Assembly (NCBI GenBank): GCA_000004985.1
Contig: GG738931.1
DNA: 64,000 nt
From: Naegleria gruberi
Lineage: Eukaryota
Direction: 5' to 3' (one strand)
In this document: positions 5,945-61,198 of the stretch, in pieces
Layout of the letters: the number at the start of each line of letters is the position of its first letter
Position numbering within the stretch: position 1 is the first letter of the stretch
The notes under the pieces: generated by a model
Database searches by the model: none
What the model was told of the DNA's origin: nothing
Seen by the model: the letters and a program-made list of their open reading frames with translations, nothing else
Translations under genes and position numbers: made by a program

Positions 5945-6259
5945 TTCTTCTTTGATTTTTTTTTAATAATTGATGACATGCGAATTTAATTACAGTTGCA
6001 AAGATATTCAAGAGCTGTCAACCATCATCTATTGACAAGCGAATCATAACAAGTAGGATCTAACTTTCAGCTTTAGTATTTCATTATCCACAACCACAAA
6101 TAACATGTTCCAAATAATAATAAAAATCATAATTTTGCAAATAATTTCAAAAACTTGATCGTTGCTTTTCCCGCTCAAAAAAACAATTAAAAATTAAAAT
6201 CAAAATTTTTTATATAAAAAAAATACAGAAAATGGTGTAGAGGCTTTTTTTCTCTGCAA

Positions 6260-7537
6260 TTATTGGTCGGAGGCTGTGCTTGTTGGTTGAACATTGGCAG
6301 CAGCTTGTTGACCAGAGTTTGGATAGGACCCTTGTTGTGGATAGTAGTTATATGGATAGGTTGAGGCGCCACCTTGAGGATAACCTTGTTGTGAAGGATA
6401 GCCATAACCTTGTTGTTGTGGGTATCCGTATCCTTGTTGTGAAGGATAACCTTGTTGTGGGTATTGTTGTTGTTGAGGATAGCTACCACCTTGGGAAGGA
6501 TATTGCTGACCATAGTTATATGGATAGGTAGAACCTTGTTGTGGATATTGTTGTTGTTGGTTATAGTATGGATAAGAACCTCCTTGTTGAGTTGGATATT
6601 GTTGTTGTTGTGCAGGATAGGTAGAACCTTGAGGATAACCTTGTTGAGTTGGATATTGTTGTTGTTGGGTTGGATACTGTTGTTGTGCAGGATAGTTTGA
6701 ACCTTGTGGGTATCCTTGTTGCTGAGTGGCTGGATATTGAGTTGGATATTGTTGTTGTGAAGGGTAACTTGAACTTGGATAGTATTGTTGTTGTGGATAT
6801 TGTTGTTGATTTGGATACTGTTGTTGTTGTTGACCATATTGAGGAGCAGACAAGAATTGTTGTTGACTTGGTTGACCTGGTTGACCTGGTTGTTGACCTT
6901 GTTGTGGCTGTTGACCTGGTTGACCTGGTTGTCCTCCTTGTTGTTGTTGGCCATTGTTATTATTGTTATTTGATTCTTGGTAATTTCCTCTAAAGCTAGC
7001 AAGGGCTGCTTCAATTTGTGAGGATGTGGATTGATACTTCTTCCAATCCTTAGCTTGCAAATCAGTGATAAGTTCAGTGGAAAGTGGAACAAGTTTCTCC
7101 TTAACAATCTTGAAATCTTCTGGTTGACCTTCAAAACCACCCTTTTCTTCATTTTGCAATTGCATAATATTGGATTGAATGGTTCTGGAGGCGCTGTCAA
7201 TCAAACTACAATCTTTGAATCCATTATCACCCCAACAAAAGCTTCCAAAACTATTAACCATATTCAATTGCATTTTAATGTTACTGACTGCACTGGATAC
7301 TCTTGATTTTGGAGTATTTTGTTGTTGTTGTTGTTGTTGGCCTTGACCTTGACCTTGACCTTGTTGTGGTTGTTGCCCTGGCATTTGTTGTTGAGGATAG
7401 CCAGCTCCTGGATATTGACCAGGTTGCTGTTGTTGGAGTGGATTTGTTTGGAATGGTCTTCCATTTACGACTTGGTATTGTGCCACTACTAGTAATGAAA
7501 TATTTAGTAGCAAAACTGTTAGAACTATTAGTTTCAT
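6260..7537 (-). CDS. secreted Q/P/Y/G-rich low-complexity protein (signal peptide plus repeats of YPxQQQ and GQPGQPGQQ) with a central globular segment
   Basis: ATG at 7537. The N-terminus [20 protein letters not shown] is a signal peptide. About 70% of residues are Q/P/Y/G. The overlapping N-rich and L-rich ORFs in other frames are artifacts of the codon repeats. Confidence 0.6.
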
Positions 7538-7665: not shown

Positions 7666-10600
7666 CTAATGGCATGTCTTGCTATTTACTAAAAAAGTTG
7701 CTTGTTTTGCTAGATAGCTTTGGTCAAGGTTCTTGAAAGGAATTAGTGCTTTACATTCACTATCTTCTAATTTGGAAAGAGCCTGAATAACCTTATGTAC
7801 ATGGGAATTTGTGAGTCTGTCACCACTTCCTGGGAATTCATAATCTGATTTGAAGAGAGTTGCCAATCTCAATAACATTTCATTTTCCTCTTTCGTATTT
7901 CTCTCGTTCAGTATTTGCTTCCATTTCTGATAAGTTACATTTTGCATTGGCTCCTTTTTCAATAATTTAGCTTCTGTTGTTGCTGCTATGGAGAGTAAAT
8001 CGTCAATGTGAATGACGAATTTATCTAGATTTGCCAACTCGAATATGAAATAGTTTGGATTTTCGTGAAGATCTGTTACGAATGCATTCTCATTCTGTGT
8101 CAACTGTACAATGACTCTTGAAATAATATCTACTGGGACAATGTTTAGAGTTCTGTTCGTCTTTGGGAAGCAATTCATTTCAAAACATCCCATGACTAAT
8201 CTATTGACCCAATCTATTAAATTAGAAACTCCATTGACAGTATCACTTCCAATCATACCAGGTCTGAAAATGGCTCCTGGATATCCCAATAATCTTGCTT
8301 GTTGAATATATTGTTCGGCAACAAACTTGGTGCTACTGTATCCATTAGCTCTTTCAATAATTGGTTTGAGTTGCCTCATGACTTGATCCATGTGATTGTT
8401 AATTAAATCCGTAATATCTTTCTTATTGCTAATTCCAGATGTACTGGTTGGTATTCCAAAGAGTGATAATCCAGATTGCAATACTCCAACTGTAGAGACG
8501 AAAACTATTGGGGCTAAAGTGGAATCTCCACTTTGAATATTCAATTTAGATGATAAGCAAGCCAATTTCAATAATGAAAGAGTAGATCCAGTATTTGAGG
8601 AAAATAATTGAGGATATGACATGACAGAGTTGACATACGCTCCGTTGTGATAAATAATATCAATATTTTCTGCCAGTTTCTTGAATTCTTCCTCAGTGAG
8701 TCCTAAATTATCATCTCCTAAATTACCCTTGACAACTGAAATTCTCTTTTCATACTTGTCATTCCAAAGTTTGAATTCCACAAGGTTTTCTTTCACTCTC
8801 ATGAAAACGTCATCTTGATGATTCTTTTCTCTGACTATACAATAGACTTTGACATTTTCTTCAGCTTTCTCTAATGCTTCCAATAAATCTCTCAATATAA
8901 ATGCTCCTAGGAATCCTGTTGAACCTGTCAATAGAATACCCTTCTTCAAATCGGCTATCTTTTTAAATTGCGTATTTCCTCTTGATGTGAGGTCTATAAT
9001 GTCATTCAACACATCTTCAGGAAGGAGAATATCCTTCTTCCAATCATGGGATGAATTGACTGTGGCAACATCATCATGTTGGTTTTTGGTGACAAAATCT
9101 GAAACTCTACTCACTACGCTATCCACATTTCTGTCAGTTTGAGAAAATATCAGCGAGAGTGGAACATCAATGTTATACTTTTGCTTCATAATACCAGAAA
9201 ATTTAACAGCGTGAAGACTGTCAATAATTTTCATATTTCCATCAGATTCAGCTGAACCTGTTTGAGAATTTAACAATAATTCACGAATCAAATCTTCATC
9301 CAATTTCCTCTTGTTAATAGACTCTAGGTGCTCATAAAGAGCTTCCAACTCTTCCTTATACTTCATTTCGCATCCAAATCTCTTAACTTTCATTGAAGAG
9401 GTAAGGAGATCGTTCTTCTCACTAAATGACTCAAATTCAATAATAAAGTCCTTTGGCACTTCGTATGGAAGAAGAGAGCAGTTCACAGATACTTTCTCAA
9501 TTTCCTCACACAAAACCTTTTTAACCTTTTCATTGGTTTTCAGCAAGTCCTTCTCTGAATCACTCAAGAGCTCTTCACTTGATGAGTTGATGAGCCCTTC
9601 CTTGATTGCAAATTGTTTCAAAACCGTTTGATTAGGTACAATTACACCTACAAGGTAGCTTTTCGACACATTTCCATAAATGAAAGCTTGGAAGATGAAT
9701 TTTGAGGTAGTCAGAGCATCTTCAATCTTTGCAGGTGCAATAAATTCTCCTTGACTCAATTTGAAAATATTCTTGAGTCTGTCAATAATTCTAATGTGTC
9801 TTGGACCTAGCTCCTCAACAATATCATTAGTATGCAACCATCCTTCCTCATCCAAAGCGTTTTTCGTAAGTTCTTCATTCTTGTAATATCCAATGAACAT
9901 GGTTTTTGTTTTAACACAAAGTTCTCCTCTTGGATAAGGTTTGTCATTTGTGAAATAGTTCATGTCAGGTACGTCAACCAACTTGTACTCAACAGAGCTA
10001 TGAAGTCTGTTATCATTCATGATACCTCCTGCTTCTGACATTCCAAAACCATCTGAAACGAAGCAATTAAAACATTTTCCAAGAAATTCTCTAACTTGTG
10101 GGCTTGAAGAGGCTCCTCCAATAATTATTGATTGTAAGCGACCACCCAACATGTTTCTAAAATCTTTCATTACTCTTTCTTCAAGTTCTCTCTCCGTTTT
10201 AGGTCTATCCTCATTTTGATTCGAAATACCTGAAAGCCAACTTGTCTTTTCCAATTCGTACACTTTTTTATACTCATCATAGAGTACATTATAAAGTCTT
10301 GGTGTTGAGGCAATGACAGTAGGTTTGACCTTTTGAATATCCTCAAAGATGTGAACAAAATCTCTGGTAAATATTCCCACTCTAGCACCATCACACATGG
10401 CCAAAAGGGTGTGTTTTCTGTCACTCATGTGAGCAAGAGGACAGAATGAAAATTGTACTTTTGGATTTTCAGCTCTGAAACCATGCATTTCTCTTCTCAG
10501 AGATTTGTCACTAACCATTATGCCCTTCGGCTGACCTGTCGATCCACTCGTGAAAACTAACGATAGAAGATCCTCATCTTTTTCTAGTCTATTCAAAATA

Positions 10601-11640
10601 AAGTCCTGGTGTTCCACATCAATCCACATCTTATTTGGATTATACTTGTTTTTTGGAGTGACGAGGATAGTCTCGTGATTTTCAAAGTGTTTTGGATATC
10701 TTTTTTTCTTAGGTTTGTTCTTTTCGTTCAAGTATTCACATAAGATTGATTTTCCCTTGTCAATAATCTCGTTCATTGGCAGAATTTCAATTTCTTGTTT
10801 ACCACTGTTTGTTGTGAATTTACTCTTGGATTTTCCTTCATTATCATCCATTACTACAATATATTTTACAAAGTCCAATTGTTTTGTAATGCTGATGAAA
10901 AAATCGAGCATTTCTAAAGTACAAACGACAACCTGACTATCGGTCAGTTCAACAATATGTTTCGTCTCATCAAAAGTTTGGGCAAAGTGAATAGGAGCAG
11001 CCACAAATCCCTTGAAGAAACAAGCATAATCACACAAGTACCAATATAAATTATTCTTTCCACAAATGGATACAAATTGTCTCTTATTTTCCTCCCTCAA
11101 AGGTTTTAAAATTTCATCCAGTCCAACAGCAATACAACAAACCAAGTGGAATACTTGTTCATATCGAAGCCAATGATAAGGTCCGTCATCCTCTTTCAAT
11201 ATTCCAAAGCAAGGATTCATTGAATTTTCAATAAAACTCCGAAACAGTGTACTATTGACACGATCGGCCTCTGATCTTTGTTTGATTTCATGATAGTGAT
11301 ATTTTGTTGGTACAAAATATTCAAGATCCTCACAAAATGTTTCCAACCAGAGTTCTCTTTCCTTTTCTTCTGGTGTTTTTTCCTCATTGTCAACTTGTTG
11401 ATGATTAGGAGATGCATTCTTCCTTCTCTTCTTACATTTATCCCAACACCAATCGTAACACTTCTCGCACAAATCAGTTCCCTTGTCATTGGTATTGGTA
11501 TATCGGATTGTGTTTTCAATAACACCCAAACACATATTACAAATCCATCGATATGAAACCGATGTGACGGTGAAGTTGGTTGGTTTTTCCTCCACTTGCA
11601 GTTTTCCACGAGAGAATAGGGAGGTGATCTTGTTGAGCAT
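7666..11640 (-). CDS. NRPS-like carboxylic-acid-reductase-type enzyme: N-terminal ZZ-type zinc finger, ACSL-like adenylation (AMP-binding) domain, PCP/thiolation domain, C-terminal NAD(P)-binding thioester reductase domain (1324 aa, single exon)
   Basis: ZZ pattern: CNMC-x8-RY-x8-DLCEKC. Adenylation domain: core LVFTSGSTGQPKG (A3), FGMSEAG (A5), GELCVKT (A6), and the ACSL-like linker DRLKNIFKLSQGEFIAPAKIE. PCP: IDSLHAVKF Ser motif. Reductase: Rossmann LLTGSTGFLGAFIL and YSSTK catalytic dyad. Confidence 0.8.
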   Translation of the reverse strand: MLNKITSLFSRGKLQVEEKPTNFTVTSVSYRWICNMCLGVIENTIRYTNTNDKGTDLCEKCYDWCWDKCKKRRKNASPNHQQVDNEEKTPEEKERELWLETFCEDLEYFVPTKYHYHEIKQRSEADRVNSTLFRSFIENSMNPCFGILKEDDGPYHWLRYEQVFHLVCCIAVGLDEILKPLREENKRQFVSICGKNNLYWYLCDYACFFKGFVAAPIHFAQTFDETKHIVELTDSQVVVCTLEMLDFFISITKQLDFVKYIVVMDDNEGKSKSKFTTNSGKQEIEILPMNEIIDKGKSILCEYLNEKNKPKKKRYPKHFENHETILVTPKNKYNPNKMWIDVEHQDFILNRLEKDEDLLSLVFTSGSTGQPKGIMVSDKSLRREMHGFRAENPKVQFSFCPLAHMSDRKHTLLAMCDGARVGIFTRDFVHIFEDIQKVKPTVIASTPRLYNVLYDEYKKVYELEKTSWLSGISNQNEDRPKTERELEERVMKDFRNMLGGRLQSIIIGGASSSPQVREFLGKCFNCFVSDGFGMSEAGGIMNDNRLHSSVEYKLVDVPDMNYFTNDKPYPRGELCVKTKTMFIGYYKNEELTKNALDEEGWLHTNDIVEELGPRHIRIIDRLKNIFKLSQGEFIAPAKIEDALTTSKFIFQAFIYGNVSKSYLVGVIVPNQTVLKQFAIKEGLINSSSEELLSDSEKDLLKTNEKVKKVLCEEIEKVSVNCSLLPYEVPKDFIIEFESFSEKNDLLTSSMKVKRFGCEMKYKEELEALYEHLESINKRKLDEDLIRELLLNSQTGSAESDGNMKIIDSLHAVKFSGIMKQKYNIDVPLSLIFSQTDRNVDSVVSRVSDFVTKNQHDDVATVNSSHDWKKDILLPEDVLNDIIDLTSRGNTQFKKIADLKKGILLTGSTGFLGAFILRDLLEALEKAEENVKVYCIVREKNHQDDVFMRVKENLVEFKLWNDKYEKRISVVKGNLGDDNLGLTEEEFKKLAENIDIIYHNGAYVNSVMSYPQLFSSNTGSTLSLLKLACLSSKLNIQSGDSTLAPIVFVSTVGVLQSGLSLFGIPTSTSGISNKKDITDLINNHMDQVMRQLKPIIERANGYSSTKFVAEQYIQQARLLGYPGAIFRPGMIGSDTVNGVSNLIDWVNRLVMGCFEMNCFPKTNRTLNIVPVDIISRVIVQLTQNENAFVTDLHENPNYFIFELANLDKFVIHIDDLLSIAATTEAKLLKKEPMQNVTYQKWKQILNERNTKEENEMLLRLATLFKSDYEFPGSGDRLTNSHVHKVIQALSKLEDSECKALIPFKNLDQSYLAKQATFLVNSKTCH

Positions 11641-11777: not shown

Positions 11778-13283
11778 TTAAAGAATCCACATGAAGAGAA
11801 TCAAACAAGTGGAGACAACAAGTGTTGTCCAAAAGATACTCGACAATGAGTACAGATACTTCTTAAAGGTGTGATTCAATCCATATACTTCCTGAATGAA
11901 TGTGCTTACGGTTGTGAGGGAGCCACAAAATCCAACCGAGAATGCATCAATCCAATAAACAGCAACACCAGAGGTGAAACCTGAAACGTAGGCAGTACCT
12001 TGTAAAATAACCAAGATTAGAGAGCCAATGATATTGACAGCAAGTGTGAAAATTGGCATTTGGAATCTTTCAACAGCTTTAAATGTAATATTTAGCTTGC
12101 AAATTAAATATCTCAATAAACAGCCAAGAGGAGCAACGAGGAGAGTGAGGCAAAGACTTTGATCCAATGATTTTGAAACGTTCATAGCACCAAGCAGAAC
12201 AATAAAAACTGAAATGACAGCCATCAAAACTACAAACAAATCAACAGCCATTTTGATTGCTGTTCTTGATTTCCATTTGGCATTTCTAATTTGTTGATAC
12301 TCTTCCAGTAATTTTCTTTTGAATAATTCTCCATTACTCTCGGCAATATATTTAATTTCACCTTCTTCCAAGAGAATCTTTCTCTGATCCTCATTTGGAA
12401 TTGGTTCTACAATATCTACATCTTCAGCCAATCCAGAAGCAACACTCGAAGATGCAATTGAATTAACACTATTTTGACTTGTCATTGTGACCTGTTGTGG
12501 CGCCTTTGCATTTCCAAATTTCTTCCTCAAAACAGGAATCACAAAACTCAAAATTGCATTTGTAATATCCTTCGCAATTACAAATGCAAAATAACAAGTT
12601 GTAAAACCAACTACTTGCTTACTCACAAACGACAAGACATCTCCCTTCATTAAACTAATTGCAGCATTCACTTGCCAACTTGAAAATGTTGTAATGCATC
12701 CACACATCCCAGTCGATAGTCCAGTATATATCCTCTTCTCAAACGACAATGTTCCATGAAAAACTCTATGCAGAAACAACTTGACCATTCTCTTCTTTGA
12801 TTCCTCCATTCCTTCCAAAGATATTGCTGATGAATTATTACTCTTCACCATAATAGGAGTATTACTTTCACTACTACTACCATTATTATTATTATTAGTA
12901 ACCTTATTCTTTTCCAATTCAACTAACAAGGCCTTCTCCTTCTCCTTCAACTCTTCCAAAGGCTTTTTAATAAAGTGCAAATGAATGACCATTAAAACTC
13001 CCATGATGAAGCAACCCACAATATTTGCATACAAATCGGAGAAGAATAAATCATCAATGGATTGAACGATATTACCATTGGATGATGTCGATGGATTCAT
13101 AATATTGTTATTATTGCTATTATTATTGGAGGAGGAGAGGGAAGGCTTGTAGAGAGTGTCGGAGAGAAGAATTCGAATTAAAACACCAATCATGCAGAAT
13201 ACGATGAGGTAGGCAATGTAGAGTAAATGTTTGGATAAATTGATGGCAAATTTGAAATTTTCTTTGAGTAGTTGCATTGTCAT
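11778..13283 (-). CDS. FEX: fluoride export protein (eukaryotic FEX, two tandem CrcB/Fluc repeats) with a long low-complexity cytosolic loop
   Basis: CrcB signature GMCGCITTFSSW in repeat 1 and GFCGSLTTVSTF in repeat 2. Multiple TM helices. ATG at 13283. Confidence 0.7.
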   Translation of the reverse strand: MTMQLLKENFKFAINLSKHLLYIAYLIVFCMIGVLIRILLSDTLYKPSLSSSNNNSNNNNIMNPSTSSNGNIVQSIDDLFFSDLYANIVGCFIMGVLMVIHLHFIKKPLEELKEKEKALLVELEKNKVTNNNNNGSSSESNTPIMVKSNNSSAISLEGMEESKKRMVKLFLHRVFHGTLSFEKRIYTGLSTGMCGCITTFSSWQVNAAISLMKGDVLSFVSKQVVGFTTCYFAFVIAKDITNAILSFVIPVLRKKFGNAKAPQQVTMTSQNSVNSIASSSVASGLAEDVDIVEPIPNEDQRKILLEEGEIKYIAESNGELFKRKLLEEYQQIRNAKWKSRTAIKMAVDLFVVLMAVISVFIVLLGAMNVSKSLDQSLCLTLLVAPLGCLLRYLICKLNITFKAVERFQMPIFTLAVNIIGSLILVILQGTAYVSGFTSGVAVYWIDAFSVGFCGSLTTVSTFIQEVYGLNHTFKKYLYSLSSIFWTTLVVSTCLILFMWIL

Positions 13284-21452: not shown

Positions 21453-23114
21453 TTAGTAAGGATATTTACATGGTCTCGTGGTTGGTGTAATGTAAGCACT
21501 GGTGGTTAAACGGAGAGGTGGCAATTGGAAGCTAATTGAAAATTCCATTTCCATCATAAAGGCAGTATATCCCAAAGGTGGATTCTTGACAACGACACGA
21601 TAGTTCATTCCTGAGGCATCTAATGGTGTGACTGGGGTGAATGTGAAGGCCTTTCCAATAGTGGTAATTCTGAAATCTCTTGCATTTGGATTGGTGGCTT
21701 GCCACAATTTAACAACAGTTGGTCTAGTTCCATTGGTAATTCTCAAATCGAGTTGGAGTCCAACGGAGTGAACATCTTGACTGGAGAATTCATAGTTTGG
21801 AAGATTAATACCATAGAGATGGGCATAATAATCGACTAAAACAGCATCCATCATATCACTGCCTTCCATATTGTGTCCAGTATTTGGCAGGTATTTCAAT
21901 CTCTTTTCACCAACAAGATGAGGATAACCATTTGGAGACAAGTCTGGCCAGAAGAATTCATCTCCCATACTATAGATCAAGAACTTGTTAATGTTGGCAT
22001 ATCTTTCAGTGTAGACGAGTGGATCCAAAATTCCAGCCAATGCATCAAATTCCTTAGTATTCAACCGGGTGACAATTCCTTGATCCATGTAAGAATCCAT
22101 TGCTTCAGGGAATTTACACAAACTATCATAAGTTTCCATCAAATTTTTCTTCAAATCCAAAACAGCAATAACCATAGGAATGATATTTTTCACTCTCTTA
22201 TCAACAGCAGCAAGAAGCCAAGTGGTCCAACCCTTCTTACTAGTTCCTTGAACTGTGAATTGTTCAATGGTGTGTCCTAATTCTTTCTTTGCAAAGTCTT
22301 GAATAGTATCCAATCCCTTTTGTCCAGCTCTTGTCATTGGCAAGTGAGCAATCCAATAAGGTTTACTAGTGTCATTCATGAAATGTCTCCAAGTAAATGC
22401 AACAATTCCGTCCTCAGCTCTTTCCTCTCTTTTTGGATCAGCTTCAAATACAATTGCTTGATTAGGAACTTGCATCATTTCAGTAACAATTGTACCAGTA
22501 GCAACAGCAATCTTGGTCAAATCAGCAAGATCATCCAAATTTGGAGTCTTGTCAGTATTTCTCTTTCCAATCATCCACAACAGTCCTTCCTTCTTATCTC
22601 TATTCAAATTATGTGGTACAATTACCAACATGAAATGCCACCAAACATATCGTCCATTCAAAATATCTTTTGGTGAAAGCCACACTTGACTTGTCATGTT
22701 CAACACATAGGTAGTAGCAGCAAGCCCATGCATGGTATTGATCAATCGATATGAATAATTATTATCCGGATAAGATTCCATAAATTCATCCAAGGCTGTT
22801 TTTTTAAAAGATTGATCAGCCTTTGAAGATGAAACCTTCCCAACACGAGAATTTACTTTTTCTCCTCTGATCAATTTCATAGAAGGAACAAGACTTCCCT
22901 CCACTACTGATGATGACGATGTATTAATCAACAGCAATACAATACTGTACATCAGCACAACACTACCCAACAACAACAAGACTCGCATCATTTTTGAAGA
23001 TTCATTTCCAGTACTCGATAACGAACGCGAAAATTCCCTCCTCTCAAATTGTGGCATTTTTTTAAGGTCGAAAAAGCAAGTGAAAATAAGATGTGAATTT
23101 CTTGGAAGGTTCAT
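21453..23114 (-). CDS. hypothetical 553-aa type II membrane or secreted protein (N-terminal TM anchor, large lumenal domain)
   Basis: ATG at 23114. A hydrophobic segment at residues 40-65. Single exon. From memory it weakly resembles the alpha/beta-hydrolase-like PhoPQ-related family reported in bacteria and dictyostelids. I cannot verify that here. Confidence 0.5.
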   Translation of the reverse strand: MNLPRNSHLIFTCFFDLKKMPQFERREFSRSLSSTGNESSKMMRVLLLLGSVVLMYSIVLLLINTSSSSVVEGSLVPSMKLIRGEKVNSRVGKVSSSKADQSFKKTALDEFMESYPDNNYSYRLINTMHGLAATTYVLNMTSQVWLSPKDILNGRYVWWHFMLVIVPHNLNRDKKEGLLWMIGKRNTDKTPNLDDLADLTKIAVATGTIVTEMMQVPNQAIVFEADPKREERAEDGIVAFTWRHFMNDTSKPYWIAHLPMTRAGQKGLDTIQDFAKKELGHTIEQFTVQGTSKKGWTTWLLAAVDKRVKNIIPMVIAVLDLKKNLMETYDSLCKFPEAMDSYMDQGIVTRLNTKEFDALAGILDPLVYTERYANINKFLIYSMGDEFFWPDLSPNGYPHLVGEKRLKYLPNTGHNMEGSDMMDAVLVDYYAHLYGINLPNYEFSSQDVHSVGLQLDLRITNGTRPTVVKLWQATNPNARDFRITTIGKAFTFTPVTPLDASGMNYRVVVKNPPLGYTAFMMEMEFSISFQLPPLRLTTSAYITPTTRPCKYPY

Positions 23115-23557: not shown

Positions 23558-23940
23558 GTTCATGATGAAAGATCTAAGGTAACATAATTATTTCCTATTT
23601 CCCTGGTAGTAAGAAGAAAGAGTAGGGGTTATCTGATGAATTTGTATATGAAAGTAGTAACAAGCTTGATATTCATTACTACTGATGTCTATCAACAAAA
23701 TTTCACATTGCTGATGATGTTTACATATCANNNNNNNNNNNNNNNNNNNNNNNNNNNNNNNNNNNNNNNNNNNNNNNNNNCTATCTGAAGTTCATGATGA
23801 AAGATCTAAGGTAACATAATTATTTCCTAGGTTATCTGATGAATTTGTATATGAAAGTAGTAACAAGCTTGATGATATTCATTACTACTGATGTCTATCA
23901 ACAAAATTTCACAATTGATGATGTTTACATATCAATTAAA
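23558..23940. repeat. direct ~170-bp duplication flanking a 50-N scaffold gap (copy 1 23558-23730 carries a 31-bp insertion; copy 2 23781-23940)
   Basis: Near-identical strings tgttcatgatgaaagatctaaggtaacataattatttcct...gatgtttacatatca occur on both sides of the N-run. Confidence 0.5.
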
Positions 23941-24749: not shown

Positions 24750-26458
24750 ATGAAAAGAAGTCTCGATGAATTTTCTGGCACACACTGCTCAGCTAAGAGT
24801 AACAAGATTCAGAAAGTATCATCAGAAAGTGTCATACAAATAGGTAATATATTCAAAACTTTTTTAATTCAAAACAAAATTCAGCCGATTTTCCTGATGA
24901 TATTTGCTATGAAATATTAGAGTATTTGAATTATAAAGATTTATTGTTGGGTGCCTTTCTTGTCTGTCGACAATGGAATCAAGTTATCAAACAACGGATC
25001 GGAGTAAAAATTGTGATTCAAGATGAGCATGTTTTAGAAGAATGGTTTCAAAGTATGGAAAATCAAGTGGAACCTAGTTATCATATCAAATCTTGGCAAA
25101 TTAAAAGACTTGTTCGTGGCACAAGATTAGACAAGGAGAAGATGGAAAGAATATGTAAAATTTTGAAGAAACAAGACAGGTTGGAGAGCCTAATTGATAA
25201 GAAAGGTTTATGTTGTCACCATACCAAATTGGTAAGCTCGCTAACTCAGTTGAAATCAATAGTCTTGAAATTCAATAATATTAACGAATACGAAATGGAG
25301 TCAATTGCCTCAATGAATAAGTTAATATCACTGGATATAGGCTGTGCTCGTACTAATCTAGAAGGGATTAAGATCCTCAGCTCTAAGGATAACTTTACAG
25401 AGCTCAATATTGAATTTTCTTTTTTTGATCAAGTTCCTTATATGGAATACGTTAGTAAGATGACCGACCTGCGAAAATTGGACATTTCTAATAATCCTAT
25501 AAGTTTAAATCGGGCTAAATCTGCTAATTATTTAAAATCACTTGAAAAACTTACCGATTTGACTGTTACGTATCTTGATATGGATCTTGAATTTTTGAAA
25601 TCTATTTCCAATTTGAAATTTCTAACAAGTCTATCTATTTATGGTAATTTGGTGGGGATTGAAGGTGTTAAAATCATATGTTCAATGTTTCAGTTGAAAA
25701 AACTAGATATAACCCTAAATGCCATTGGAGAAGAAGGTGCAAAACTAATTAGCAATTCTCTCAAACAATTAAATACCCTCCGTATTGGAGACAATCAAAT
25801 TGGAGACAAAGGAGCAGAGAGTATTAGCTCAATGAAGACGTTAACAGCCCTTGATTTAGAGGAATCAAATATTGGACCTCAAGGATTGGAATTTATTTGC
25901 CAAATGGATCAATTGAAAAGCTTAATGTTAAATTTTAATACTATAGGTGGTAGTAGGTTACCAATTAATGCGCTCACAAATTTAACTGAAATCAGTCTAG
26001 TTTTAACAAATATAGGAATAGAAATAGTGAAATCCATAAGCTTGATTACCAAGTTGAGAAATGTTAATATTAGTGACAACAGATTGGGAGATGAATGTTT
26101 AGAAATTATAGGCAATTCTCTTTTCAATTTAACAGAACTTGATATTTCTGAGAATAATATGACTGAAAACGGAACCAAATATTTGAGCTCACTAAAAAAT
26201 TTAACACATTTGAATGCCGAAGATAATAGACTTAATGATGAATCTATTCAACATTTATGTTCATTGAAGAAGTTGAAGTCTCTGTATATTAATAATAATC
26301 AAGTTGGAGACGAAGGCTTTGCACTAATTGCCAATTCCATGAAACAATTACGGTTAGTACACGCCCATAATAATAAGGAAACTGAAATTGGAAGAACACT
26401 TCTCAAGTCAAGGAAACATTTATTAACATCAGTTTGGCAAGATAATGATGGTGAGTGA
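24750..26458 (+). CDS. F-box / leucine-rich-repeat (RNI-type) protein, 2 exons 24750..24843, 24885..26458 (555 aa)
   Basis: ATG at 24750. GGTAAT donor at 24844 and TTCAG acceptor at 24884 (41-nt intron) place the F-box (DFPDDICYEILEYLNYKDLLLGAFLVCRQW) in frame. About 14 LRRs of the LxxLxLxxNxIGdeG type follow. Confidence 0.7.
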
Positions 26459-29387: not shown

Positions 29388-30500
29388 TTACAAATGCTTT
29401 CTATGAACGATACTTTCACCAATTTCTTCAAATTCTGATTTCTTAATTGAGATATTATCCACATGATGTAGACACGACAATATAGAACCTCCAATCCATG
29501 AGGAATATTCTCTCTCTGGTGGACTAATCACTCTAAACTTATATTTGTAATCTGAACTCTGAGAGGAATTCAACTCTTGGACAAGTCGTTCAGAGAAATT
29601 TGGAATGAGAGTATTACCTCCTGAAAGAATCATATTATCTAGACAATCTCTTTTGAAAATGGGTTCCAGATTATTGACAGATTTGAGAATTAGTTCGTGA
29701 ATGGAAGGTTGTTCTGGTTTGTTGATTAGTGAAGGACGAAAGAGAATTTCTGGACATTTGAATTGTTCAAGACCAAGTGTAATTGTTTGATCTCCAACTT
29801 GATAAACCTTCTTACAAATATCAATTCTCTGATTTTCCAATGGATAATCCATGGAAATTTCACACAATTTTTCCTTAATTTCTTTAAAGTGGTGTTCAAT
29901 TCCACTTGCCTTATCAATTGTGAATCCCAAATCATCATGAATTAATTTTCCCATATATTCAGTTAAATCCCTTCCACCAAATTCCAACTTATAACAGTAT
30001 TGAGATATTAACTGTCCATCACAAAATGGTGCTGATTGAGTGAGTCCATCTCCACTTTTCAACACCAAACCAGTTGTCCTTCCAATTGCTAAAAGTGATG
30101 AAAGAGATCGATCGACCAAACAAATTATTGGACTCTGCAATTTTTCAAATAACATTTCAGCAATTTTCACTCGATTCCTTTTCACAGTCGTTACAGAATT
30201 ATAAACAATCATTATTGGGCTAGTCAACTCAACGAGATAATCTTTCAATTCGTTTGAAATAATAAACTGCAACATTGCCTCCAGATCATTGAAATTAGAT
30301 ATCTGTCCTCCTCTCTCTATCGGAAACTTTAGATCACCATCAATATCTTCAAGATTCAATGATAAAAACTTGCTCCGAATTCTTTGAATTTTTGTTGATT
30401 TTTTGGCAATAATTGAAGCGGGTAAATCATCACCTCCAATTCCACTTTTAATTGATGAGGAACCAAAATCAATAACTGCTGTGCTTGGGTGTTGAAACAT
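29388..30500 (-). CDS. divergent actin-related protein (actin/Hsp70-fold ATPase), 370 aa
   Basis: ATG at 30500. Its AVIDFGSSSIKSG motif resembles the actin phosphate-1 loop. Length and overall architecture are actin-like. Confidence 0.65.
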   Translation of the reverse strand: MFQHPSTAVIDFGSSSIKSGIGGDDLPASIIAKKSTKIQRIRSKFLSLNLEDIDGDLKFPIERGGQISNFNDLEAMLQFIISNELKDYLVELTSPIMIVYNSVTTVKRNRVKIAEMLFEKLQSPIICLVDRSLSSLLAIGRTTGLVLKSGDGLTQSAPFCDGQLISQYCYKLEFGGRDLTEYMGKLIHDDLGFTIDKASGIEHHFKEIKEKLCEISMDYPLENQRIDICKKVYQVGDQTITLGLEQFKCPEILFRPSLINKPEQPSIHELILKSVNNLEPIFKRDCLDNMILSGGNTLIPNFSERLVQELNSSQSSDYKYKFRVISPPEREYSSWIGGSILSCLHHVDNISIKKSEFEEIGESIVHRKHL

Positions 30501-30591: not shown

Positions 30592-31899
30592 TTACACAAA
30601 CATTTGTTCAAATTCCTTTGAAACCTTAAATCTCATATAAATATCAGGAATTACAGTTGACATGACTTCATTCAAAACTTCATCAAATATAGACGAAATA
30701 TTTTCAGAATTTGGATTCGATTCGAGTGCCTTCTTAATCTCCACTCTCTTAGCATCATTTGTATTGATGAAATTTGGATTGTCAATGTTAGAGAGATAGT
30801 CAGCAAATACTTTTTTGGCAAATTGAAATTTGACATCTAGAGAATCTTTGGATTGTTTGAATTGATGCACTGTTTCATAGAAGGTAATGTTTTCTGCGTT
30901 CAGTTCTTTAAAGGCATAGACCTTGAAATACTTTCTCTTAGTTTCGTCTTGTAGGACGTCGTGTACACTGAGTGAAAAATCCAATTTAGAATTTCGTTCA
31001 GAATCGGTTGTGGTTTTCTGAATGAAACAGATAAATGTCAATGTGGTCTTTGGTTTCATCATTTTTTCAACTTGCTTTTTAGCTTTACGAGTATTCTGAG
31101 CTTCCAGACGTTTGTACATTTCATTCGAAAGCATTTCAAAACTTGCCTTCTTTTTCTTTTTGGTCAACTTGCACATTTGTGGACTTTTTCCAGCATTTCC
31201 CAAATCATCCAATAAATTACTTGATGAAGAACTACTAGAACTATCACTTTCCACAGTTAACAAATCCGAAAAGTCAAAAATCATTGAAGAAATGACATCT
31301 GGAGCATCACCAAATAAACCATGATTAAAACTCTGAATAACAGTTGAATCTCTAATGAGGAACATCTTTGGGACCACTAGGAAACTCTCCCCTTCAAACT
31401 GTTCCAATGGCAATCCCAACACTTGCCCAAATCCTTCATCCTTCTCAATCACTGCCAATTTTGGTAAAACTTGCGGAACATCCGGATGTTTAAACTCCAC
31501 TCCGAAATGCTTTGCCAACAAGTGCTCCTTATCACACAACCTTATCATTTCCTTCAAGATTGGATTCGAATTATGATGCTCCTCCAAAATCTCCTTCACT
31601 TCTTCATCACTCTCCACATGAATCACCACCGGAATGATATTCAATTGTAAAAGTGATTTGTAAATTTTTGCAATTTGATAAAGTCGTCGATTACAAAAGG
31701 CACATCCACCAAATCGTAAGAATCTGCGGAAGATTAGTAAGCAATTGTGGTGTTGGGATAGTTGGGCAAGTGTTTTTCCATTGGAAGTTTTGAATTGTGT
31801 GAAAATTTGTTTCTCCACGAAAATGTCCGCTTTCGAATGGGAGTTTAGGTAGTTATCTGTTTTTGCAGAATCTGAATGGGTTGAAATCATGGGATCCAT
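30592..31899 (-). CDS. thioredoxin-like (CxxC) N-terminal domain fused to a C-terminal RGS domain, 435 aa
   Basis: The RGS signature region is LQDETKRKYFKVYAFKELNAENITFYETVHQFKQ...FDEVLNEVMSTVIPDIYMRFKVSKEF. The N-terminus contains GGCAFCNRRL within a Trx-like beta-alpha-beta context. Confidence 0.65.
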   Translation of the reverse strand: MDPMISTHSDSAKTDNYLNSHSKADIFVEKQIFTQFKTSNGKTLAQLSQHHNCLLIFRRFLRFGGCAFCNRRLYQIAKIYKSLLQLNIIPVVIHVESDEEVKEILEEHHNSNPILKEMIRLCDKEHLLAKHFGVEFKHPDVPQVLPKLAVIEKDEGFGQVLGLPLEQFEGESFLVVPKMFLIRDSTVIQSFNHGLFGDAPDVISSMIFDFSDLLTVESDSSSSSSSSNLLDDLGNAGKSPQMCKLTKKKKKASFEMLSNEMYKRLEAQNTRKAKKQVEKMMKPKTTLTFICFIQKTTTDSERNSKLDFSLSVHDVLQDETKRKYFKVYAFKELNAENITFYETVHQFKQSKDSLDVKFQFAKKVFADYLSNIDNPNFINTNDAKRVEIKKALESNPNSENISSIFDEVLNEVMSTVIPDIYMRFKVSKEFEQMFV

Positions 31900-60948: not shown

Positions 60949-61198
60949 AAGAAAACTAATGACAGAATCAATCAAAGCTGATGTTTCTAATTTTNNNNNN
61001 NNNNNNNNNNNNNNNNNNNNNNNNNNNNNNNNNNNNNNNNNNNNNNNNNNNNNNNNNNNNNNNNNNNNNNNNNNNNNNNNNNNNNNNNNNNNNNNNNNNN
61101 NNNNNNNNNNNNNNNNNNNNNNNNNNNNNNNNNNNNNNNNNNNNNNNNNNNNNNNNNNNNNNNNNNNNNNNNNNNNNNNNNNNNNNNNNNNNNNNNNN

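What the first reader, a model, noticed from the sequence alone, without database searches (positions are those of the whole stretch)
7666..11640. ZZ zinc finger fused to an acyl-AMP ligase, carrier protein and thioester reductase (NRPS-like A-T-R) in a eukaryote
The 1324-aa single-exon protein combines three things. First, an N-terminal ZZ-type zinc finger (CNMC...RY...DLCEKC). Second, an adenylation domain whose linker and C-terminal motifs are of the long-chain acyl-CoA synthetase type rather than the amino-acid-activating type. Third, a PCP with a Ser attachment site and a terminal SDR-type reductase (TGxxGxLG, YxxxK). A-T-R enzymes such as carboxylic acid reductases, Lys2 and myxobacterial FAAL-ACP-R release aldehydes or alcohols. 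A ZZ domain on such an enzyme is, to my knowledge, not a described architecture. It could indicate regulated or localised fatty aldehyde or alcohol production. The gene sits head-to-tail next to the FEX fluoride exporter, which is probably coincidental.
Basis: partly seen in the sequence, partly recalled or inferred. Interest (0 to 1): 0.65.

Follow-up and report, generated by a model that had tools for sequence, protein, structure and literature searches.

The report
Zinc-finger-tagged carboxylic acid reductase of amoebae
This Naegleria gruberi gene encodes an apparently intact enzyme of the kind that turns carboxylic (probably fatty) acids into aldehydes, with a degenerate ZZ zinc finger at its front end; the fusion is not a one-off, because it marks a large family found across amoeboid eukaryotes for which I found no published study.

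Summary
Window 7666-11640 (-) is one uninterrupted 1324-aa ORF, identical to N. gruberi NAEGRDRAFT_82230 ("predicted protein").

- **Core enzyme.** It is an adenylation / carrier / thioester-reductase (A-T-R) enzyme. Its closest solved relatives are actinobacterial carboxylic acid reductases (CARs; E 1e-90). The A domain is of the long-chain acyl-CoA synthetase type. All residues known to be essential in CARs are present.
- **ZZ domain.** The N-terminal Cys motif is a real but degenerate ZZ domain. N. gruberi scores below the Pfam cut-off and lacks the second zinc site. Its orthologues pass the cut-off, and the four ligands of the first zinc site are invariant.
- **Main new result.** The fusion is not unique. 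50 of the 150 closest cluster representatives carry a ZZ domain in front of the A-T-R core, most of them canonical. They include Dictyostelium discoideum, other Amoebozoa and Capsaspora. In a rough tree they fall outside the ZZ-free clade that holds the bacterial CARs. The named members checked are annotated only as hypothetical or by automatic similarity, and I found no paper on them.
- **Open points.** Substrate, product (aldehyde or alcohol) and the role of the ZZ domain are inferred, not shown.
- **FEX neighbour.** The adjacency is not conserved, so it is coincidental.

Verdict: a new variant of a known kind, of moderate interest.

The parts
7666..11640 (-). Complete single-exon coding sequence (1324 aa plus stop) of NAEGRDRAFT_82230, a ZZ-A-T-R protein
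   Evidence: ORF list. 100% identical to the NCBI protein. In-frame stops lie upstream of the ATG.
11605..11640 (-). Short conserved N-terminal motif (aa 1-12, MxxKxxSLFSxG; F9 and S10 invariant among the five orthologues). It may be an amphipathic or basic membrane-association motif; that reading is an inference.
   Evidence: Alignment A1. Comparable basic, amphipathic N-termini occur in dictyostelid members, and MGG- starts in two others.
11455..11553 (-). Degenerate ZZ-type zinc finger (aa 30-62). The first zinc site is intact (C34, C37, C58, C61) and R46, Y47, D56 are conserved. The second zinc site is absent.
   Evidence: - Pfam ZZ scores 15.1-17.4 bits here but 22.6-27.5 bits in orthologues.
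- The four Cys are invariant in 35 family members.
- The heterolobosean profile hits only ZZ domains at the top of its PDB list.
- The family ZZ profile hits the Nbr1, p300, p62 and HERC2 ZZ domains at E 1e-17 to 1e-10.
- The AlphaFold2 model has pLDDT 82, and its best fold matches are the p62 ZZ domain at 1.1-1.4 A.
11269..11454 (-). Variable linker (aa 63-124). It is lysine-rich just after the finger (KCKKRRK) and is absent in Willaertia.
   Evidence: Alignment A1. Predicted to be helical, at moderate confidence.
9316..11268 (-). Adenylation domain of the ACSL/CAR type (aa 125-775). Key features are A3 FTSGSTGQPKG (aa 363-373), H404, E632 in the IIDRLKNIFKLSQGEF linker, and K751 (A10). There is a Naegleria-specific insertion at about aa 265-350.
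   Evidence: - Pfam AMP-binding and AMP-binding_C_3.
- NCBIfam CAR, FadD11 and long-chain ligase models.
- CAR structures 5MSP/5MSO/5MSC.
- An annotated ACSL at E 1e-54.
- Conservation of the key residues across the family.
9061..9303 (-). Carrier (T/PCP) domain (aa 780-860). The phosphopantetheine attachment serine is S808, codon 9217-9219, in the motif IIDSLHAVKF.
   Evidence: - D807, S808 and L809 are invariant in orthologues.
- S808 is invariant in 35 family members and present in 126 of 128 sequences.
- It aligns with the DSLSA motif of CAR 5MSP.
- Pfam PP-binding scores 14.9 bits here but passes the cut-off in 7 of 7 homologues.
7669..8943 (-). Thioester reductase domain (aa 900-1324). 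Features are TGSTGFLG (aa 905-912), R937, T1050, Y1101 and K1105. G1128 sits at the position of the 'key Asp' of bacterial CARs. A C-terminal subdomain runs to the end of the protein.
   Evidence: - Pfam NAD_binding_4, E 2e-54.
- TIGR01746 thioester-reductase model.
- Solved reductase domains: MxaA 4U7W and the CAR R domain.
- Column counts for each residue.

Best explanation
The gene encodes a catalytically competent, CAR-like A-T-R enzyme.

**Proposed mechanism**
1. The ACSL-type adenylation domain uses ATP to activate a free carboxylic acid as an acyl-AMP. The acid is most likely a medium- or long-chain fatty acid.
2. The acyl group is transferred to the phosphopantetheine arm on Ser808 of the carrier domain. 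This needs a separate phosphopantetheinyl transferase.
3. The C-terminal SDR-type reductase releases the acyl group with NADPH as an aldehyde. The aldehyde may be reduced further to the alcohol.

**The N-terminal domain**
The roughly 35-residue N-terminal domain is a reduced, one-zinc descendant of a canonical two-zinc ZZ domain. That canonical ZZ is the prevailing N-terminal module of a eukaryotic clade of these enzymes (Heterolobosea, many Amoebozoa including Dictyostelium, and Capsaspora). It most likely serves as a protein-docking or localisation module rather than taking part in chemistry.

**Shown here:** domain homology, intact catalytic residues, conservation of the fusion, and separation from the bacterial CAR clade.

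**Inferred:** the substrate class, aldehyde versus alcohol as product, and every statement about what the ZZ domain binds.
For: **A-T-R core**
- NCBIfam carboxylic acid reductase model, 464.6 bits, spanning aa 353-1154.
- Solved CARs 5MSP, 5MSO and 5MSC at E 1e-90 to 1e-87; the best match, 5MSP, spans aa 355-1162, i.e. A, T and R.

**Catalytic residues**
- All five residues shown to be essential in CARs are present (NcCAR H237, E433, S595, Y844, K848; PMC5826065). Here they are H404, E632, S808, Y1101 and K1105.
- Also present are the A10 lysine K751, the NADPH-site arginine R937 and T1050.

**Type of A domain**
- End-to-end match to an annotated ACSL at E 1e-54.
- Matches to long-chain ligase models.

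**ZZ domain**
- C34, C37, C58 and C61 are invariant in 35 members.
- Orthologues pass the Pfam cut-off.
- The family ZZ profile hits ZZ structures at E down to 1e-17.
- The model superposes on the p62 ZZ domain at 1.1-1.4 A.

**Family**
- 50 of the 150 best representatives carry a ZZ domain in front of the A domain.
- Named members come from Dictyostelium, Polysphondylium, Tieghemostelium, Acytostelium, Cavostelium, Protostelium, Stenamoeba, Rhizamoeba, Mastigamoeba, Balamuthia (its partial model P0043 carries ZZ) and Capsaspora.
- In a neighbour-joining tree, all ZZ-bearing sequences fall outside a ZZ-free clade of 35. That clade contains a protein scoring 1131 bits against Nocardia CAR.

**Adaptor role of the N-terminus**
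Other members carry further adaptor-like modules at the same end: SH3-like (below threshold) and a Ras-like GTPase.
Against: - No biochemical or expression data exist for any member that I could find.
- The N. gruberi ZZ and carrier domains both score below their Pfam cut-offs on their own.
- The second zinc site and one of the two acidic residues before C58 are lost. In ligand-binding ZZ domains those acidic residues cage a free N-terminus (from my own knowledge of the p62, p300 and HERC2 work). The finger may therefore have lost ligand binding in Naegleria.
- The protein scores far below the NCBIfam CAR equivalog cut-off (464.6 against 1300).
- It has Gly where type I CARs have the Asp proposed to prevent over-reduction. 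"Aldehyde as final product" is therefore not secure.
- Substrate specificity cannot be read from the sequence. Characterised CARs have relaxed scope and no specificity code (PMC5826065).
- The tree is a rough distance tree without support values, and most leaves have no taxon name.
Confidence: 0.7

Rival explanations
1. The enzyme is a four-electron reductase whose physiological product is a primary (fatty) alcohol, not an aldehyde.
For: - G1128 replaces the key Asp of type I CARs (SrCAR D998 in the alignment; NiCAR D984 in PMC5826065).
- In the ZZ clade this column is Gly in 72 of 93 sequences, and Asp is not among its four commonest residues. Asp occurs in 10 of 35 sequences of the CAR-containing clade.
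- The reductase domain also matches MxaA (4U7W, E 3e-40) and the mycobacterial Nrp R domain (4DQV). From my own knowledge both are reported to give alcohols.
- CAR R domains have an intrinsic aldehyde-reducing side activity (PMC10168641).
Against: Fungal CARs also have Gly at this position and still give mainly aldehydes (PMC5826065; PMC10168641). The residue alone does not decide the outcome.
Confidence: 0.3
2. In Naegleria the ZZ remnant is only a structural zinc knuckle, or an evolutionary relic, with no ligand. Any docking function of the ancestral ZZ has been lost or taken over by other parts of the protein.
For: - The second zinc site is lost, and so is the first acidic residue of the [DN]-[FY]-D-L-C motif (KGTDLC in N. 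gruberi).
- The Pfam score is below the cut-off.
- A second Naegleria paralogue (P0216) has a remnant with no Cys at all.
Against: Across orthologues down to 36-41% identity, thirteen positions around the finger stay invariant: V28, Y30, W32, C34, C37, I41, R46, Y47, D56, L57, C58, E59 and C61. That is more than is needed to hold one zinc ion and argues for a conserved surface.
Confidence: 0.3
3. The enzyme reduces an amino acid or another polar acid (Lys2-like alpha-aminoadipate reductase, or a glycine-betaine-reductase-like enzyme) rather than a fatty acid.
For: - TIGR03443 (alpha-aminoadipate reductase) matches at 198 bits.
- A-T-R enzymes of eukaryotic primary metabolism are mostly of this kind.
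- ZZ domains bind ammonium groups (from my own knowledge), which could hint at an amino-bearing ligand.
Against: - The TIGR03443 match covers only the T-R part (aa 811-1185) and lies far below its cut-off of 1030 bits.
- The A domain is ACSL/CAR-type throughout. It has PLAH404MSDR where amino-acid-activating domains carry the Asp that binds the alpha-amino group (the latter from my own knowledge).
Confidence: 0.05
4. The Cys motif is a chance match, or the N-terminus is an annotation artefact that joins two genes.
For: The Pfam ZZ score in N. gruberi is sub-threshold. The Foldseek E-values are not significant.
Against: - The ORF is continuous, with stops upstream of the ATG.
- The same fusion is present in four other heterolobosean-type orthologues and about 45 further representatives.
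- ZZ passes the Pfam cut-off in orthologues.
- The family ZZ profile gives E 1e-17 against solved ZZ domains.
Confidence: 0.02

Closest known systems
Type I bacterial carboxylic acid reductases (CAR / FadD9; Nocardia iowensis, Segniliparus rugosus, Mycobacterium marinum; PDB 5MSP, 5MSO, 5MSC)
   Same: - Same A-T-R order.
- Homologous over aa 355-1162 at E 1e-90.
- Same ACSL-like A domain.
- Same essential His, Glu, Ser, Tyr and Lys.
- The same ATP- and NADPH-dependent mechanism through a phosphopantetheinyl thioester is expected.
   Different: - Only about 30-35% identical to CAR-clade representatives.
- 464.6 bits against the equivalog cut-off of 1300.
- Falls outside the ZZ-free clade that contains the bacterial CAR representative.
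- Gly instead of the key Asp.
- Carries an N-terminal ZZ domain, which none of the 35 sequences of that clade has.
- Eukaryotic host.
Fungal carboxylic acid reductases (types II-IV, e.g. Neurospora crassa NcCAR)
   Same: Eukaryotic A-T-R carboxylate reductases. They have Gly at the position of the bacterial key Asp (PMC5826065) and the same essential residues.
   Different: - Fungal A-T-R proteins appeared only as weak partial hits (26% identity over 29% of the query).
- By the authors' own account, NcCAR is more distant from the solved bacterial CARs than from other templates.
- I know of no ZZ domain in them. This was not surveyed here.
Long-chain acyl-CoA synthetases (ACSL)
   Same: The A domain aligns end to end with an annotated ACSL (E 1e-54). 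The match includes the linker IIDRxKxxxKLxQGE and the C-terminal T-x-x-x-K-x-K-R. PF23562 is the matching C-terminal subdomain.
   Different: The acceptor thiol is an in-cis carrier domain rather than free CoA, and a reductase follows it. No CoA ester is expected as product (inference).
Ligand-binding ZZ domains (S. pombe Nbr1, p300/CBP, p62/SQSTM1, HERC2, BIG, PRT1, KCMF1)
   Same: - The family ZZ profile matches them at E 1e-17 to 1e-6.
- Most family members keep both zinc sites and the [DN]-[FY]-D-[LF]-C motif.
- The N. gruberi model superposes on the p62 ZZ domain at 1.1-1.4 A.
   Different: - N. gruberi keeps only the first zinc site and only the second acidic residue (D56).
- The best PDB match of the heterolobosean profile is the RSC8 ZZ domain. 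In the aligned stretch RSC8 likewise lacks the second Cys pair.
- No known ZZ protein is a metabolic enzyme of this kind, as far as I know (from my own knowledge).
Lys2 / alpha-aminoadipate reductase and other NRPS-like A-T-R enzymes
   Same: T-R didomain homology (TIGR03443, 198 bits over aa 811-1185). Same reductive-release logic.
   Different: The A domain is not of the amino-acid-activating type, and the score is far below the cut-off of 1030 bits.

Membership tests
ZZ-type zinc finger (Pfam PF00569) | Score at or above the Pfam gathering cut-off (21.4 bits) | tested here: not met
   N. gruberi scores 15.1 bits (aa 1-157 scanned) or 17.4 bits (54-aa segment). The N. fowleri-type orthologue scores 16.0. 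Orthologues do pass: N. lovaniensis 22.6, Willaertia 27.5, metagenomic P0005 24.7. So do more distant members: P0032 28.7, P0123 31.5, Capsaspora 21.5.
ZZ-type zinc finger (Pfam PF00569) | First zinc site: C-x2-C ... C-x2-C | tested here: met
   C34, C37, C58 and C61 are invariant in the 5 orthologues and in 35 family members.
ZZ-type zinc finger (Pfam PF00569) | Second zinc site: an internal C-x2-C plus two downstream His | tested here: not met
   The internal pair is replaced by T-N-T-N. C65 and C69 are absent in Willaertia and in P0005. Most Amoebozoa members keep C-x-E-C and H-x-H.
ZZ-type zinc finger (Pfam PF00569) | ZZ fold | tested here: inconclusive
   The AlphaFold2 model of aa 26-80 has pLDDT 82. 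Its top Foldseek matches are ZZ domains of p62, CBP, BIG and Ada2 (rmsd 1.1-1.9 A, probability up to 0.99). The E-value is only 0.3, because the domain is so short. The model was also built on an alignment of ZZ-bearing homologues, which biases it towards that fold.
ZZ-type zinc finger (Pfam PF00569) | Acidic cage for a free N-terminal amine (D/N after the first Cys; D-x-D before the fifth Cys). This feature is taken from my own knowledge of the p62, p300 and HERC2 studies. | tested here: inconclusive
   N35 and D56 are present. The first acidic residue is G54 in N. gruberi, Q or S in its closest relatives, and D in P0005. Binding itself cannot be tested with these tools.
Carboxylic acid reductase, EC 1.2.1.30 (NCBIfam NF041592, type I) | A-T-R architecture with the essential His, Glu, Ser (Ppant), Tyr and Lys | tested here: met
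   H404, E632, S808, Y1101 and K1105 are aligned to SrCAR H315, E533 and the rest. Their essentiality comes from PMC5826065.
Carboxylic acid reductase, EC 1.2.1.30 (NCBIfam NF041592, type I) | Equivalog score cut-off (1300 bits) | tested here: not met
   464.6 bits.
Carboxylic acid reductase, EC 1.2.1.30 (NCBIfam NF041592, type I) | Key Asp in the reductase active site (NiCAR D984 / SrCAR D998) | tested here: not met
   G1128, as in fungal CARs (PMC5826065).
Carboxylic acid reductase, EC 1.2.1.30 (NCBIfam NF041592, type I) | Placement inside the clade of characterised bacterial CARs | tested here: not met
   In the neighbour-joining tree of 128 sequences it lies outside the ZZ-free clade of 35. 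That clade contains P0134, which scores 1131 bits against Nocardia CAR. This is a rough tree without support values.
Carboxylic acid reductase, EC 1.2.1.30 (NCBIfam NF041592, type I) | ATP- and NADPH-dependent reduction of a free acid to an aldehyde | not testable with these tools
   Needs an enzyme assay with the holo-protein.
Phosphopantetheine-binding carrier domain (Pfam PF00550) | Pfam cut-off (20.8 bits) and a D-S-L attachment motif | tested here: inconclusive
   The score is 14.9 bits in N. gruberi. However, D807-S808-L809 are invariant, S808 is conserved in 126 of 128 sequences, and PP-binding passes the cut-off at the homologous place in 7 of 7 family members.
Long-chain acyl-CoA synthetase (ACSL) | Full-length ACSL-type adenylation domain | tested here: met
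   E 1e-54 over aa 29-645 of the 651-aa A segment, against an annotated ACSL. PF23562 matches. Long-chain ligase NCBIfam models match, all below their own cut-offs.
Long-chain acyl-CoA synthetase (ACSL) | Free-standing enzyme that makes an acyl-CoA | tested here: not met
   It is fused to a carrier domain and a reductase domain. The product chemistry was not tested.
Lys2-type alpha-aminoadipate reductase (TIGR03443) | Equivalog cut-off (1030 bits) with the A domain covered | tested here: not met
   198.4 bits, covering only aa 811-1185, the T-R part.

The most novel reading that the evidence does not exclude
The ZZ domain of this family, together with the SH3-like and Ras-like modules seen in some members, is a reader or recruitment module. 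It would recognise a free N-terminal amine of a partner protein, or the amino group of a lipid. In this way it would place or gate a fatty-acid-reducing enzyme at a particular membrane or organelle. If so, amoeboid eukaryotes from Naegleria to Dictyostelium and Capsaspora share an unrecognised, signal-controlled route from free fatty acids to fatty aldehydes or alcohols. In the boldest version, the bound amine would itself react with the nascent aldehyde to give a reductive N-alkylation.
Probability: 0.15. Interest if true: 0.75.

Novelty: new variant of a known kind. Interest (0 to 1): 0.5.

Why it matters
Carboxylic acid reductases are known and exploited mainly from actinobacteria and fungi. 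This gene is the Naegleria representative of a third group: a large eukaryotic group for which I found no published study.

- The group is found in model organisms that can be manipulated genetically, such as Dictyostelium discoideum and Capsaspora.
- It is also found in the pathogens Naegleria fowleri and Balamuthia.
- Its members are fused to domains normally used for protein recognition and signalling.

If the enzymes are active, three things follow.
- They add new biocatalysts for making aldehydes.
- They point to an unknown step of lipid or aldehyde metabolism in amoebae.
- They would be the first case I know of in which a ZZ finger is attached to a metabolic enzyme, which makes the finger's role directly testable.

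Naegleria is reported to prefer lipids as fuel (from my own knowledge, not checked here). A fatty-acid-reducing enzyme conserved in N. fowleri could therefore be physiologically relevant.

Tried and rejected
The AlphaFold2 model of aa 1-125 (pLDDT 64) gave no significant PDB match (best E 2.5, although the top hit was a ZZ domain). I replaced it with a 55-aa model built on a deeper alignment.
- **Profile search with A4.** The word-indexed protein search with the 35-sequence family profile returned mostly NRPS/PKS giants. It did not even recover the Amoebozoa members, so it was useless for taxonomy.
- **Literature.** Searches for Naegleria or Dictyostelium with "carboxylic acid reductase" or "thioester reductase", for ZZ with NRPS-like terms, and for eleven gene or protein identifiers found nothing on this family. 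The one paper that mentions both Naegleria and "thioester reductase" (a rotifer transcriptome) is unrelated. One search failed because a term was too short.
- **Gahloth et al. 2017 CAR structure paper.** It is not held. I took the key-Asp statement from PMC5826065 instead.
- **Regular expression for the key Asp.** It picked the wrong motif in the bacterial clade. I replaced it with alignment-column counts.
- **Gene neighbourhood.** Ten further long ORFs in the first half of the window (275-34815) show nothing related to lipid metabolism and no phosphopantetheinyl transferase: PhoPQ-related, LRR, actin and RGS matches, plus six ORFs with no family match. The long ORFs beyond 36 kb were not scanned. 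The FEX adjacency is not conserved.
- **Lys2-type function.** Considered and rejected.
- **Targeting signals.** The C-terminus (…SKTCH) is not a PTS1-like peroxisomal signal (read directly from the sequence).

Full report
**1. The observation**

The window holds a single uninterrupted ORF at 7666..11640 on the minus strand. It is 1324 codons long and starts at the first ATG after an in-frame stop. The product is 100% identical over its whole length to the NCBI "predicted protein" XP_002669159 / NAEGRDRAFT_82230 of Naegleria gruberi. So the window is N. gruberi DNA, and the single-exon model is the annotated one.
- C34-NM-C37 ... R46-Y47 ... D56-L-C58-EK-C61
- FTSGSTGQPKG
- IIDS808L
- T905-GSTGFLG
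- Y1101-SST-K1105

**2. Domain tests on the sequence itself**

Pfam gives AMP-binding (aa 153-586, E 1.6e-45), AMP-binding_C_3 (aa 626-771, just above its cut-off) and NAD_binding_4 (aa 904-1177, E 2e-54).

The two small domains do not reach their Pfam cut-offs. ZZ scores 15.1-17.4 bits against 21.4. PP-binding scores 14.9 bits against 20.8. On this sequence alone both would therefore be "suggestive".

NCBIfam's best model is carboxylic acid reductase (NF041592), at 464.6 bits over aa 353-1154, well under its equivalog cut-off of 1300. Next come the T-R part of alpha-aminoadipate reductase, the generic thioester-reductase model, and several long-chain fatty-acid ligase models.

Against solved structures, the best matches are the carboxylic acid reductases of Segniliparus rugosus and Nocardia iowensis (5MSP, 5MSO, 5MSC; E 1e-90 to 1e-87). 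The 5MSP match is one alignment from aa 355 to 1162 that runs through the A, T and R domains. It places S808 in the CAR's DSLSA carrier motif.

The A domain also aligns end to end with an annotated insect long-chain acyl-CoA synthetase (E 1e-54). The alignment includes the linker IIDRLKNIFKLSQGEF and the C-terminal LTSSMKVKR. It is also what one expects of a CAR/FadD9 relative.

**3. Orthologues and the ZZ question**

Full-length orthologues exist in these organisms:

| Organism | Identity to N. gruberi |
|---|---|
| N. fowleri (FDP41_013591 and related models) | 54% |
| N. lovaniensis | 54% |
| Willaertia magna | 44% |
| Metagenomic contig L001 | 36% by BLASTP; 41% in the alignment |

The L001 gene is interrupted by an intron, so that contig is eukaryotic.

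In the five-way alignment, thirteen positions in and around the finger are invariant: V28, Y30, W32, C34, C37, I41, R46, Y47, D56, L57, C58, E59 and C61. The linker that follows is variable and is missing in Willaertia. C65 and C69 are not conserved.

The N-terminal segments of N. lovaniensis, Willaertia and L001 do pass the Pfam ZZ cut-off (22.6, 27.5 and 24.7 bits).

A profile of the five segments finds ZZ domains at the top of the PDB list: RSC8, HERC2, PRT1, p62, Ada2 and dystrophin. In the aligned stretch, the best hit, RSC8, also lacks the internal Cys pair.

The domain is thus a ZZ finger that keeps the first zinc site (C1, C2, C5, C6). It has lost the second site (the internal C-x2-C and the two His).

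**4. The fusion is a family trait, not a curiosity of this gene**

An exhaustive HMMER search with aa 1-1200 against 1.84 billion cluster representatives found 2577 proteins at E <= 1e-30.

Among the 150 best, a regular expression and then a local HMM of the finger found a ZZ domain upstream of the A domain in 50. Most are fully canonical. An example is CDLCRKEIEEGQLRYHCSECENFDLCPECFKKTGHNH.

A profile of 34 such segments matches solved ZZ domains strongly:

| Solved ZZ domain | E-value |
|---|---|
| S. pombe Nbr1 | 9.7e-18 |
| p300 | 3.7e-13 |
| CBP | 1.5e-12 |
| p62 | 2.4e-11 |
| HERC2 | 1.7e-10 |

Whole-protein Pfam scans of seven of these relatives give PP-binding above its cut-off in all seven. 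ZZ is above its cut-off in three, including Capsaspora. In a 35-sequence alignment, the four first-site cysteines, K751 and S808 are invariant.

Where sources give names, the ZZ-bearing proteins come from the following taxa:
- **Dictyostelids:** Dictyostelium discoideum, D. citrinum, D. firmibasis, D. dimigraforme, D. purpureum, Cavenderia, Tieghemostelium, Polysphondylium and Acytostelium.
- **Other Amoebozoa:** Cavostelium, Protostelium, Stenamoeba, Rhizamoeba, Mastigamoeba and Balamuthia (its partial model P0043).
- **Filasterea:** Capsaspora owczarzaki.

Most are called "hypothetical protein" or "Carrier domain-containing protein". A few carry automatic similarity names, such as "Long chain acyl-CoA synthetase 7" or "fatty acid CoA ligase FadD9".

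A rough neighbour-joining tree of the A3-to-C-terminus core (128 sequences) gives one ZZ-free clade of 35. That clade contains P0134, which scores 1131 bits against Nocardia CAR and is thus a bona fide type I CAR. All 48 ZZ-bearing sequences lie among the other 93. Of the 61 of those that have a Met start and at least 250 residues before the A3 motif, 46 carry the finger.

The simplest reading is that a canonical ZZ was fused to a CAR-like enzyme early in a eukaryotic lineage. It was later degraded or lost several times. P0025, P0027, P0033 and P0043 have lost one or both Cys of the internal pair, and the Heterolobosea have lost the whole second site.

With the family alignment, AlphaFold2 models N. 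gruberi aa 26-80 at pLDDT 82. The best fold matches are the p62 ZZ domain (rmsd 1.1-1.4 A over 38 columns, probability 0.94-0.99), followed by the CBP, BIG, Ada2 and RSC8 ZZ domains. Two caveats apply. The E-values (about 0.3) are not significant for so short a domain. And the alignment itself biases the model towards the ZZ fold.

**5. Is the enzyme likely to be active, and what does it do?**

Five residues are essential in CARs according to alanine scanning of NcCAR: H237, E433, S595, Y844 and K848 (PMC5826065). All are present here, as H404, E632, S808, Y1101 and K1105. They are highly conserved across the family. So are the A10 lysine K751, the catalytic-triad T1050 and R937, which lies downstream of the glycine-rich loop.

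I therefore expect the canonical cycle:
1. ATP-dependent acyl-adenylate formation.
2. Thioesterification on the phosphopantetheine arm of S808.
3. NADPH-dependent reductive release.

The substrate is inferred to be a fatty or other hydrophobic carboxylic acid. The grounds are the ACSL/FadD9 character of the A domain and the absence of any similarity to amino-acid-activating A domains. That is an inference. Characterised CARs are promiscuous, and no specificity code exists for them (PMC5826065).

One tested difference from type I CARs concerns the product. Bacterial CARs have a key Asp (NiCAR D984, SrCAR D998) that is proposed to switch the reductase on and off. Here that position is G1128. In the ZZ clade it is Gly in 72 of 93 sequences, and Asp is not among the four commonest residues. 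Fungal CARs also have Gly there. CAR R domains have an intrinsic aldehyde-reducing side activity (PMC10168641). Whether the end product is the aldehyde or the alcohol therefore remains open.

**6. What the finger may do**

This part is inference.

The family consensus keeps a D or N after the first Cys and the motif [DN]-[FY]-D-[LF]-C before the fifth. From my own knowledge, these are the residues that cage the free alpha-amine of a bound N-terminus in p62, p300 and HERC2. The solved ZZ domains closest to the family profile are largely the ligand-binding ones.

Some relatives add further adaptor-type modules at the same end:
- SH3-like modules. Several SH3 models are the top Pfam hits in 4 of 5 cases, but all are below their cut-offs.
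- A Ras-like GTPase (P0217, P0234).

Bacteria have an analogous PilZ-A-T-R arrangement (P0006, P0247).

Many members begin with a short basic, amphipathic stretch. Two begin with MGG, which could be a myristoylation site.

Together this favours a role for the N-terminus in recruiting or regulating the enzyme rather than in catalysis. In Naegleria itself the finger is reduced, with one zinc site and G54 in place of the first acidic residue. Yet thirteen positions remain invariant at 36-41% overall identity. Some constrained surface therefore persists.

**7. Context**

The upstream gene on the same strand is FEX, with two CrcB repeats. The downstream gene is a Gln/Pro/Tyr-rich protein with a hydrophobic N-terminus and no family match.

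Ten further long ORFs between 275 and 34815 were scanned. They show a PhoPQ-related protein, an LRR protein, an actin-family protein and an RGS protein; six have no match. None relates to lipid metabolism and none is a phosphopantetheinyl transferase. The long ORFs beyond 36 kb were not scanned.

Different genes flank the orthologues in N. lovaniensis and Willaertia.

**8. Novelty and verdict**

The gene and its relatives are in public databases, and precomputed Pfam annotation already shows ZZ + AMP-binding + NAD_binding_4 for the Dictyostelium proteins. The architecture is thus recorded, but it is unnamed.

Within the searchable literature I found no paper on it, under any of eleven identifiers or several keyword combinations. 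Subscription-only papers could not be searched.

I rate it a new variant of a known kind: a eukaryotic, ZZ-tagged branch of the CAR/FadD9 type of A-T-R reductase. N. gruberi carries a degenerate version of the tag.

Interest is moderate. The chemistry is expected. The conserved coupling to a protein-recognition domain, and the breadth of the family in tractable amoebae and in pathogens, are not.

Noticed in passing
window 11778-13283 (-): A FEX-type fluoride exporter (501 aa, two CrcB repeats) lies 137 bp upstream of the ZZ-A-T-R gene on the same strand. The adjacency is absent next to the orthologues in N. lovaniensis (L003) and Willaertia (L002).
   Followed up: yes
window 6260-7537 (-): A 425-aa Gln/Pro/Tyr/Gly-rich protein with a hydrophobic, signal-peptide-like N-terminus and no Pfam match. 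Its low-complexity repeats also create long spurious ORFs in other frames (6187-7200 on the minus strand, 6649-6993 on the plus strand).
   Followed up: partly
window 21453-23114 (-): A 553-aa ORF with a full-length, strong match to PhoPQ-activated pathogenicity-related protein (PF10142, 318.7 bits). The family name points to bacteria, so this may be a gene of bacterial origin in Naegleria.
   Followed up: no
window 23731-23780, 50551-50600, 58414-59179, 60995-61198: Runs of N (assembly gaps). They explain the apparent drops in GC content near 58-59 kb and 61 kb. The ORFs listed across them (58369-59286 and 60987-62309) are unreliable.
   Followed up: yes
window 24926-26458 (+), 29388-30500 (-), 30592-31899 (-): An LRR protein, an actin-family protein (370 aa, E 2e-65) and an RGS-domain protein. 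None has an evident link to the finding.
   Followed up: no
related proteins P0021, P0035, P0037, P0048, P0216: A sub-group of the family has an SH3-like module in front of the ZZ position; the Pfam SH3 hits are all below threshold. P0021, P0035 and P0048 keep a ZZ finger. In P0037 and in P0216, a second N. lovaniensis paralogue (C9374_012428), no ZZ was detected, and by eye only a remnant without the Cys ligands is left. Naegleria therefore probably has two paralogous lines of this enzyme.
   Followed up: partly
related proteins P0217, P0234 (JGI metagenomes); P0006, P0247 (bacterial): Other N-terminal fusions occur on the same A-T-R core. One is a Ras/Roc-like small GTPase plus ZZ (the ZZ at about aa 380-446). 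In bacteria there is a PilZ (c-di-GMP-binding) domain. Regulatory modules seem to have been attached to the front of this enzyme type repeatedly.
   Followed up: partly
window 11605-11640 (-), aa 1-12; N-termini of P0029, P0031, P0034, P0047, P0044, P0120: A short conserved N-terminal motif, MxxKxxSLFSG, occurs in Heterolobosea. Dictyostelids have basic, amphipathic starts (for example MLKHIKNFLSKK), and two members start with MGG, a possible myristoylation site. This may point to peripheral membrane association.
   Followed up: partly
L001 3360-3440; L002 6001-10079; L003 6001-10166: The orthologues in the metagenomic eukaryote, in Willaertia and in N. lovaniensis contain introns. Their gene spans are longer than their coding length, and the L001 reading frame resumes after about 57 bp. 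The N. gruberi gene has no intron.
   Followed up: partly
window aa 265-350 of the protein (about 10591-10848, minus strand): A Naegleria/Willaertia-specific insertion in the N-terminal half of the A domain. It is absent from the metagenomic orthologue P0005 and contains a basic cluster (KNKPKKKRYPK). A second basic cluster follows the finger (KCKKRRK). Their function is unknown.
   Followed up: no
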